Source: Escherichia coli
GTDB taxonomy: Bacteria > Pseudomonadota > Gammaproteobacteria > Enterobacterales > Enterobacteriaceae
DNA: 2,519 bases
Strand: one strand, 5' to 3'
Assembly: GCF_003334355.1 (NCBI RefSeq)
Contig: NZ_QOWP01000073.1
The notes below the pieces were generated by a model that saw only the letters and a list, made by a program, of their open reading frames with translations, did not search any database and had not been told where the DNA came from. Position 1 is the stretch's first letter. Every line of letters starts with the position of its first letter. A program made the position numbers and the translations under genes. Below, piece after piece: positions 506 through 540 of this stretch.

Positions 506-540
506 GTAGCAGCACTGTCACCTTCTGGCAGTGCTGCTAC
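506..540. repeat. Perfect 12-bp inverted repeat (stem-loop) just after the yadC-like stop; possible terminator or RNA-stability hairpin without a U-tract
   Basis: GTAGCAGCACTG (506-517) pairs perfectly with CAGTGCTGCTAC (529-540) across an 11-nt loop. It is followed by GGATAAATCA rather than a T-run, so a canonical intrinsic terminator is not supported on either strand. Confidence 0.4.

What the first reader, a model, noticed from the sequence alone, without database searches (positions are those of the whole stretch)
506..540. Strong 12-bp hairpin after the yadC-like stop without a U-tract
A perfect 12-bp GC-rich stem with an 11-nt loop starts 5 nt after the fimbrial gene stop but is not followed by a T-run on either strand. 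This fits a 3' mRNA-stabilising hairpin or a Rho-dependent/inefficient terminator insulating the panB promoter from fimbrial-operon read-through (now including IS1-derived transcription), rather than a classic intrinsic terminator.
Basis: seen in the sequence. Interest (0 to 1): 0.25.

Follow-up and report, generated by a model that had tools for sequence, protein, structure and literature searches.

The report
Conserved U-less hairpin ending yad operon
The hairpin is real and its base-pairing is kept across E. coli lineages through compensating mutations, so it is most likely an ordinary RNA stem-loop that marks and protects the end of the Yad fimbrial operon's message just upstream of the panB promoter.

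Summary
As RNA, window 505-541 (+) folds into a 16-bp stem (13 perfect pairs, one U.G, two more pairs) with a 5-nt loop, at -28 kcal/mol. It starts 4 nt after the yadC stop, ends 9 nt before the panB -35 hexamer, and has no T-run on either strand. It is single-copy and matches no Rfam family or REP element.

The exact sequence occurs in only 1,340 of 5,426 complete E. coli genomes. All 35 E. coli-type alleles recovered from genomes and metagenomes still carry a 9-16 bp hairpin at this place. The 8-bp core (GCACCGCC/GGCGGTGC) is conserved. The outer stem and loop differ by about 54% between alleles, yet the stem stays paired through double substitutions. Single-side changes are mostly U.G on the + strand, which weakly favours an RNA on the yadC/panB strand.

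The tails are T-poor and the 70-80 nt downstream are C-rich and G-poor. This fits the known class of U-less protective stem-loops at Rho-dependent 3' ends better than a canonical intrinsic terminator. I found no 3'-end mapping data, because the operon is H-NS-silenced, so the function is inferred. It is a new member of a known kind and of low-to-moderate interest.

The parts
1..131 (+). Right end of an IS1 copy that truncates yadC. This is context, not part of the element.
   Evidence: annotate an IS1A-family transposase over this stretch. The junction was examined.
132..501 (+). 3' part of yadC, the Yad fimbrial tip adhesin and last gene of the yadN-yadV-htrE-yadMLKC operon. Stop codon TGA is at 499-501.
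   Evidence: RefSeq annotation under the match; ORF ending at 501.
502..504 (+). Second in-frame stop (TAA) between the yadC stop and the hairpin.
   Evidence: Sequence. Other alleles also carry a second in-frame stop here (TAA TAA, TGA TGA, TGA TAG); one, L067, has TGA CGA instead.
505..520 (+). 5' arm of the hairpin (CGUAGCAGCACUGUCA).
521..525 (+). Loop (CCUUC).
526..541 (+). 3' arm of the hairpin (UGGCAGUGCUGCUACG).
   Evidence: Covariation with the 5' arm is shown.
542..614 (+). C-rich, G-poor spacer (C/G = 1.64; 78-nt windows starting at 545-560 reach 1.8-2.1, the top 5% of the window). It is a candidate Rho-loading region on read-through RNA and also holds the panB promoter.
   Evidence: The role as a Rho-loading site is inferred, not shown.
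551..578 (+). panB sigma-70-type promoter: TTGCCC, 16-nt spacer, TAAAAT with an extended -10 TG.
   Evidence: The motif is conserved in Klebsiella, Citrobacter, Kluyvera and Enterobacter. panBC is reported as its own sigma-70 transcription unit (PMC3923258).
615..1409 (+). panB, the first gene of the downstream panBC unit.

Best explanation
The hairpin is an RNA stem-loop in the 3' untranslated end of the Yad fimbrial operon transcript, on the + strand of the window. It forms as soon as the ribosome leaves the yadC stop codon 4 nt upstream. It has no U-tract, so it probably does not release RNA polymerase efficiently by itself. In the proposed model, polymerase runs on into the C-rich, G-poor spacer and early panB. 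There the untranslated read-through RNA is terminated by a factor (Rho) or cleaved. 3'-5' exonucleases (PNPase, RNase II) then trim the RNA back to the base of the stem. The result would be a defined, protected 3' end for yad mRNA and a separate panBC unit driven by its own promoter 9 nt downstream. What is shown: the structure exists, selection keeps it paired, it lacks a U-tail, and the downstream sequence is C>G. What is inferred: Rho action, exonuclease trimming, mRNA stabilisation and insulation of panB.
For: 1. The fold is strong: 16 bp, -28 kcal/mol, z = -6.5.
2. All 35 distinct E. coli-type alleles from 145 loci keep a 9-16 bp hairpin at the same place, with + strand energies of -15 to -30 kcal/mol.
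3. On 18 Yad-type alleles, 82.8% of cells are paired against 25-60% when partners are slid by 1-3 columns. Seven of 16 pairs show double changes. The covariation score is 0.268 against 0.146 in shuffles (0 of 500 reach it). Pair 12-38 is CG in 10 alleles and UA in 8 with none unpaired; pair 13-37 shows five pair types.
4. The outer arms and loop differ by 0.53-0.55 between alleles. Third codon positions differ by 0.39 in the last 60 nt of yadC and by 0.24 in panB. The stem therefore stays paired although its sequence drifts at least as fast as these nearby sites.
5. Single-side changes in the 11 core pairs give 9 U.G/G.U cells on the + strand against 2 A.C/C.A cells. The window's own U518.G528 makes the + strand fold 3.6 kcal/mol better than the - strand fold.
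6. The T-tail score is 0.14-1.15 in all alleles, against 2.18 for the nearby panC terminator-like hairpin.
7. The C/G ratio just downstream is in the top 5% of the window. Dar & Sorek describe the same features for Rho-dependent 3' ends: stable stem-loops, low U, mild C>G downstream, PNPase/RNase II trimming (PMC6061677).
8. The yad operon is H-NS-silenced, horizontally acquired-type DNA (PMC13245861), a context in which H-NS filaments co-localise with Rho-dependent termination sites (PMC4337669 abstract).
Against: 1. No mapped 3' end, bicyclomycin effect or half-life measurement exists for this site in the data I could reach.
2. Only 73 nt separate the hairpin from the panB start codon. If ribosomes load on read-through RNA, Rho may not act and yad transcription would simply continue into panBC.
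3. Comparing fold energies of the two strands over all alleles is inconclusive: 17 alleles favour +, 18 favour -, p = 0.41.
4. The wobble asymmetry reduces to about 7 independent events against 2 (one-sided p about 0.09) and could partly reflect strand-biased C-to-T mutation.
5. O157/O145-type alleles have a short T-run 4-5 nt after the stem, so some alleles may work as weak intrinsic terminators.
Confidence: 0.5

Rival explanations
1. The hairpin is a weak, non-canonical intrinsic terminator. The very stable stem alone, perhaps helped by NusA or NusG and the few U residues in the tail, makes a fraction of polymerases stop just after it. It would then insulate the panB promoter directly, without Rho.
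For: The hairpin sits exactly between a stop codon and the next promoter. O157/O145 and 1008S19-type alleles have UUUU or UUUCUU 4-5 nt after the stem. The stem energy is well above that of the panC terminator-like hairpin in the same window.
Against: Yad-type alleles have only 1-3 T in the first 8 tail positions and T-tail scores of 0.14-1.15. The consensus terminator scan does not call the site. By established knowledge, efficient intrinsic termination in E. coli needs a U-rich tract next to the stem. No selection for U in the tail is visible: the tail GATAAAT is conserved as part of the panB upstream region.
Confidence: 0.2
2. The palindrome is not selected for function. It would persist because hairpin-templated repair (quasi-palindrome correction by template switching) keeps copying one arm onto the other, in a fast-evolving junction next to the hypervariable yadC gene.
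For: The outer arms and loop evolve at least as fast as nearby third codon positions. Most alleles are perfect or near-perfect palindromes. Fold energies do not favour one strand overall.
Against: All 35 alleles keep a stem. The 8-bp core is far more conserved (0.03-0.10) than neutral sites, which indicates purifying selection. The common variants are U.G wobbles on one strand, which a DNA copying process would not favour. Intermediates with mismatches are rare, seen in one to six contigs each.
Confidence: 0.12
3. The element acts on DNA or on panB expression rather than on yad mRNA. It could be a protein-binding inverted repeat or cruciform just upstream of the panB -35 hexamer. Alternatively, it could be part of a structure in read-through RNA that hides the panB ribosome-binding site.
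For: The stem ends 9 nt from the panB -35 hexamer. The core GCACCGCC-N7-GGCGGTGC is sequence-conserved with fixed spacing. Klebsiella, which has folK rather than a fimbrial gene upstream, has a weak 8-bp hairpin at the equivalent spot. In read-through RNA the panB Shine-Dalgarno is predicted to be more paired than in promoter-derived RNA in 9 of 9 Yad-type alleles.
Against: The K-12 allele and the O157-type alleles change core positions with compensation. That fits pairing and not a protein recognition sequence. The outer stem covaries, which a DNA operator does not require. Citrobacter and Kluyvera keep the promoter without a comparable hairpin. The Shine-Dalgarno comparison has no length-matched control, and the pattern is mixed in non-Yad alleles and in Klebsiella, Citrobacter and Kluyvera (3 of 6 go the other way).
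Confidence: 0.1

Closest known systems
[quoted passage not shown]
   Same: It is a stable stem-loop right after the last gene of an operon. It has a U-poor tail and no upstream A-tract. C is mildly enriched over G downstream. It is not a REP element. The operon is poorly expressed.
   Different: No 3' end, bicyclomycin dependence or exonuclease trimming has been measured at this site. The stem (16 bp, -28 kcal/mol) is, from general knowledge of terminator stems, at the strong end of the range. The next promoter starts only 9 nt downstream, so any Rho loading must overlap the panB leader.
Canonical intrinsic (Rho-independent) terminator
   Same: It is a GC-containing hairpin a few nucleotides after a stop codon, and it separates two co-directional transcription units.
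   Different: Yad-type alleles have no U-tract next to the stem, and the stem is longer than usual. O157-type alleles have only a short U-run set 4-5 nt away from the stem.
REP/BIME extragenic palindromes that stabilise upstream mRNA
   Same: It is an extragenic imperfect palindrome of about 35 nt with similar stability, and it could block 3' exonucleases.
   Different: It is single-copy in the genome and has no REP consensus. Its sequence differs between lineages at one fixed locus, rather than being a dispersed repeat.

Membership tests
Protective 3' stem-loop of a Rho-dependent transcript (Dar & Sorek class) | Energetically stable stem-loop downstream of the gene's stop codon | tested here: met
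   16 bp, -28.1 kcal/mol, z = -6.5. Kept in all 35 alleles.
Protective 3' stem-loop of a Rho-dependent transcript (Dar & Sorek class) | Tail not uridine-rich | tested here: met
   1-3 T in the first 8 tail positions of Yad-type alleles; T-tail score 0.14-1.15.
Protective 3' stem-loop of a Rho-dependent transcript (Dar & Sorek class) | C-over-G enrichment (rut-like) immediately downstream | tested here: met
   C/G is 1.64 over 542-614. 78-nt windows starting at 545-560 reach 1.8-2.1, the 95th-99th percentile of the window. This is a proxy only.
Protective 3' stem-loop of a Rho-dependent transcript (Dar & Sorek class) | Precise steady-state RNA 3' end at the base of the stem | not testable with these tools
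   No entry near MG1655 149,66x-149,70x in the supplements held for PMC7815308 and PMC12207403. The operon is H-NS-silenced in laboratory culture.
Protective 3' stem-loop of a Rho-dependent transcript (Dar & Sorek class) | Bicyclomycin-dependent read-through and PNPase/RNase II-dependent trimming downstream | not testable with these tools
   This needs RNA-seq in treated or mutant strains with yad derepressed.
Canonical intrinsic terminator | GC-rich stem-loop | tested here: met
Canonical intrinsic terminator | U-tract directly following the stem | tested here: not met
   The tail is GAUAAAUCAUUG. The terminator scan does not call the site. T-tail scores are low in all alleles.
REP/BIME element | Dispersed multi-copy repeat with a consensus sequence | tested here: not met
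   One place per genome in 1,340 genomes (median 1, highest 2). Alleles at the locus share no REP consensus.
Any curated Rfam RNA family | Score at or above the family's gathering threshold | tested here: not met
   The best hits are eukaryotic microRNA precursor models at 13-21 bits, against thresholds of 51-57 bits or more. These reflect generic hairpin shape.
Protein-binding palindromic operator | Sequence-specific conservation of half-sites without any need for arm-to-arm complementarity | tested here: inconclusive
   The 8-bp core is conserved with fixed spacing. However, core changes in K-12 and O157-type alleles are compensated and the outer arms covary, which points to pairing rather than protein recognition.

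The most novel reading that the evidence does not exclude
The hairpin could be more than a passive end-cap. It might be a rapidly diversifying, structure-constrained element: the outer stem and loop change at or above the local synonymous rate within one species, while an 8-bp core is frozen. Its stability (-15 to -30 kcal/mol between alleles) might tune adhesin mRNA level per lineage. Together with the CCUGAUAA (497-504) : UUAUCAGG (600-607) pairing that hides the panB ribosome-binding site only on read-through RNA, it might form a two-layer insulator (transcript end plus translational masking) between a silenced horizontally acquired operon and an essential vitamin-synthesis operon.
Probability: 0.1. 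Interest if true: 0.5.

Novelty: new member of a known kind. Interest (0 to 1): 0.25.

Why it matters
In most complete E. coli genomes, the Yad fimbrial operon (or a fimbrial operon in its place) abuts the pantothenate genes panBC. If the hairpin is the 3' end-defining element, it explains how a silenced, horizontally acquired operon can be switched on, for example in serum, without driving panBC from outside. It would also set the stability of the adhesin message. The locus is a clean natural example of compensatory evolution within a single species, with more than 30 alleles and one structure. That makes it useful for benchmarking predictors of U-less 3' ends and for designing stem-disruption and restoration experiments. 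It does not reveal a new mechanism.

Tried and rejected
1. **Rfam scan at a permissive E-value.** It returned only sub-threshold eukaryotic microRNA hairpin models, which I rejected as shape matches. UAGCAGCAC happens to equal the miR-15/16 seed.

2. **REP or other dispersed repeat.** Rejected: the sequence is single-copy.

3. **Experimental 3' ends.** I searched the held supplements of Adams et al. 2021 and TERMITe 2025 for yadC, panB and MG1655 coordinates 1496xx-1497xx. Nothing turned up on the relevant strand; the only entry is a Rho-related antisense site inside yadC at 150,722 on the + strand. Supplements of Dar & Sorek 2018 and the 3'-UTR valve paper are not held. Peters et al. 2012 is not held.

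4. **Strand assignment by fold energy over all alleles.** Inconclusive.

5. **d'Aubenton-Carafa-type terminator score.** With modern energies it is negative for every hairpin, including the panC one, so I used only its T-tail term.

6. **Homology of the E. coli hairpin with the weak Klebsiella hairpin** (same TGGTAAT loop as the AR0055 allele). The alignment does not settle it.

7. **Left boundary of the yad insertion.** AT-rich DNA starts directly after folK in E. coli and shows no obvious counterpart of the Klebsiella folK-panB spacer by eye (not aligned), so the origin of the hairpin remains open.

8. **Literature search for yadC/panB terminator or panB promoter mapping.** It found nothing specific beyond panBC being its own sigma-70 unit.

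Full report
**What the window is.** The window is E. coli K-12-type DNA.
- 1-131: the right end of an IS1 copy inserted in yadC.
- 132-501: the 3' part of yadC, the tip adhesin and last gene of the Yad chaperone-usher fimbrial operon yadN-yadV-htrE-yadMLKC.
- 615-1409: panB.
- 1421-2272: panC.
- Minus strand after panC: the C-terminal end of rpnC, which I read as interrupted by an IS10 end from about 2446. This reading is from memory of the IS10 end sequence; the collection matches stop at 2445.
- All the genes around the finding are on the + strand of the window. In MG1655 coordinates a position equals 150216 minus the window position, on the minus strand.

**Checking the observation.** The inverted repeat is real.
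- The yadC stop TGA (499-501) and a second in-frame stop TAA (502-504) are followed by CGTAGCAGCACTG (505-517) and CAGTGCTGCTACG (529-541), which form 13 perfect pairs.
- As RNA the stem extends through U518.G528, C519-G527 and A520-U526. The result is 16 pairs around a 5-nt loop.
- The hairpin alone folds at -28.1 kcal/mol on the + strand and -24.5 on the - strand. In context z = -6.5, and none of 200 shuffles fold as well.
- No T-run follows on either strand, and the consensus terminator scan does not call the site.
- The stem ends 9 nt before a sigma-70-type promoter, TTGCCC-16 nt-TAAAAT with an extended -10 TG at 551-578. This motif is conserved upstream of panB in Klebsiella, Citrobacter, Kluyvera and Enterobacter. 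panBC is reported as its own sigma-70 unit (PMC3923258).
- The hairpin therefore lies upstream of the panB promoter and is not in the panB leader.

**What it is not.**
- It matches no Rfam family. The only hits are sub-threshold eukaryotic microRNA hairpin models.
- It is not a REP or other dispersed repeat: it occurs once per genome.
- RefSeq annotates nothing in this spacer.

**Comparative evidence.** This is the main result.
- The exact 55-nt segment is found in only 1,340 of 5,426 complete E. coli genomes. The adjacent panB 5' region is found in 5,418, mostly at only 80-95% identity. The locus is therefore deeply polymorphic.
- Fetching divergent lineages and aligning them showed different sequences at the hairpin position. 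Each of them is itself a hairpin.
- Pattern scans anchored on the panB promoter brought in 15 species-level genomes and 120 metagenome contigs.
- Among these, 35 distinct E. coli-type alleles were found. Every one has a 9-16 bp stem between the adhesin stop and the promoter, with + strand energies of -15 to -30 kcal/mol.
- For 18 Yad-type alleles (alignment A2), I tested the 16-pair structure derived from the window:
  - 82.8% of cells are paired, against 25-60% when partners are slid by 1-3 columns.
  - 7 pairs show changes on both sides.
  - The covariation score is 0.268 against 0.146 in shuffles, and 0 of 500 shuffles reach it.
- RNAalifold independently predicts the inner 11 pairs. Pair 12-38 is CG in 10 alleles and UA in 8 with none broken. 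Pair 11-39 is AU in 10 and GC in 7. Pair 13-37 shows CG, AU, GC, UA and UG.
- The 8-bp core, GCACCGCC/GGCGGTGC, is nearly invariant, with a mean pairwise difference of 0.03-0.10.
- The outer arms and loop differ by 0.53-0.55. That is at least as much as third codon positions in the last 60 nt of yadC (0.39) or in panB (0.24).
- The sequence of the outer stem is therefore free to drift while its pairing is kept.
- O157/O145-type strains carry a different adhesin gene. They have CGCACCAGAG...CUCUGGUGCG, which shares only GCACC/GGUGC with the Yad-type core and has a fully compensated apical half.
- The CFT073 knockout primer published in PMC13245861 contains the SCU108-type allele. This confirms that allele in a reference uropathogen.

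**Which strand and which molecule.**
- In the 11 core pairs, single-side changes give 9 U.G or G.U cells on the + strand against 2 A.C or C.A cells, which would be wobbles on the - strand.
- The + strand wobble alleles are the common ones (K-12, AR0055, L039 and L026 types). The opposite kind was seen in only one or two contigs each.
- Counted as roughly independent events this is about 7 against 2, one-sided p about 0.09. It is suggestive only.
- Comparing fold energies of the two strands over all alleles is uninformative: 17 favour +, 18 favour -, p = 0.41.
- I take this as moderate support for an RNA read in the yadC-to-panB direction.

**Mechanism.**
- The tails are U-poor: 1-3 T in the first eight positions. 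The T-tail score is 0.14-1.15, against 2.18 for the panC terminator-like hairpin at 2277-2307. The element is therefore not a canonical intrinsic terminator.
- The 70-80 nt downstream are C-rich and G-poor. C/G is 1.64 over 542-614 and 1.8-2.1 in 78-nt windows, the top 5% of the window.
[quoted passage not shown] They showed that PNPase and RNase II trim the RNA back to the stem (PMC6061677).
- The yad operon is H-NS-silenced (PMC13245861). This explains why no 3' end is recorded for it in the datasets I could search.
- My best explanation (confidence about 0.5) is that the hairpin is the protective, end-defining 3' stem-loop of yad mRNA. Actual polymerase release would occur downstream by Rho, or the RNA would be cleaved and then trimmed back.
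- The rivals are:
  - a weak intrinsic terminator (0.2), which is more plausible for the O157-type alleles that have UUUU 4-5 nt after the stem;
  - an unselected palindrome kept by templated repair (0.12), which is hard to square with the frozen core and with all 35 alleles keeping a stem;
  - a DNA-level or panB-directed element (0.1).

**Origin.**
- In Klebsiella, folK directly precedes panB. A weak 8-bp hairpin, GGCGAUCG-UGGUAAU-CGGUUGCC, sits next to the same promoter. Citrobacter and Kluyvera lack a comparable stem.
- In E. coli, AT-rich yad regulatory DNA begins immediately after the folK stop.
- Whether the strong E. coli hairpin descends from the ancestral folK-panB spacer or arrived with the fimbrial operon is unresolved.

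**Verdict.** The element is a new, well-supported instance of a known class rather than a new kind of element. Its within-species compensatory diversity is a neat feature but not a surprising one. Interest is 0.25.

Noticed in passing
window 1-131 and 2446-2519: The window is bounded by an IS1 end inside yadC and, by my reading, an IS10 end inside rpnC. Neither junction is contiguous in any of the 5,426 complete E. coli genomes; all the listed matches covering both sides are two separated pieces. Strains such as BE104 have IS1 in yadC at a different position. The source strain is therefore not in the collection or is a laboratory derivative.
   Followed up: partly
window 542-900 (panB 5' region) and yadC: panB is a core biosynthetic gene, yet it is unusually polymorphic. 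Only about 1,300 records are at least 99% identical to the window, while about 3,900 are 80-95% identical. yadC identities fall to 62-68% between strains (PMC13245861 S1 Table). The divergence of the adhesin locus seems to extend into panB.
   Followed up: partly
L145 2500-2660 (plasmid NZ_CP086619.1); also NZ_CP086617.1: panB and panC, plus panD close by, have been captured on IncFIA/FIB conjugative plasmids with an IS26 transposase gene about 2 kb away. The match begins about 30 nt before the adhesin stop, so it includes the hairpin. That copy has an A.G mismatch in the otherwise invariant core (ATCGCAACGCCA / TGGCGGTGCGAT).
   Followed up: partly
window 497-504 with 600-607; also 569-579 with 596-606: CCUGAUAA, which spans the yadC stop, is complementary to UUAUCAGG, which overlaps the panB Shine-Dalgarno. 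A second inverted repeat links the -10 region to the same site. In the predicted folds, the panB Shine-Dalgarno is mostly paired on read-through RNA (P unpaired 0.0-0.5) and more open on promoter-derived RNA (0.23-0.81) in 9 of 9 Yad-type alleles. There is no length-matched control, and the pattern is mixed in other alleles and genera (3 of 6 go the other way).
   Followed up: partly
window 2277-2307: A 10-bp perfect hairpin (TAACTGGCGC / GCGCCAGTTA), extending to 12-13 pairs as folded, lies 5 nt after the panC stop and is followed by TTAATTT. It is a terminator-like site for panBC with a modest T-tail.
   Followed up: no
window 499-504 and the equivalent position in other alleles: yadC ends with two in-frame stop codons in most alleles examined (TGA TAA, TAA TAA, TGA TGA, TGA TAG); L067 has TGA CGA.
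   Followed up: no
L015 about 7013-7060 (Klebsiella michiganensis) and other Klebsiella loci: Klebsiella species have folK directly upstream of panB. A weak hairpin, GGCGATCG-TGGTAAT-CGGTTGCC, lies 6 nt from the panB -35 region. Its loop is identical to that of the E. coli AR0055-type allele. This may be homology or coincidence.
   Followed up: partly
window 506-514: UAGCAGCAC in the 5' arm equals the seed region of animal miR-15/16. That explains the weak Rfam microRNA hits and is a chance resemblance.
   Followed up: yes
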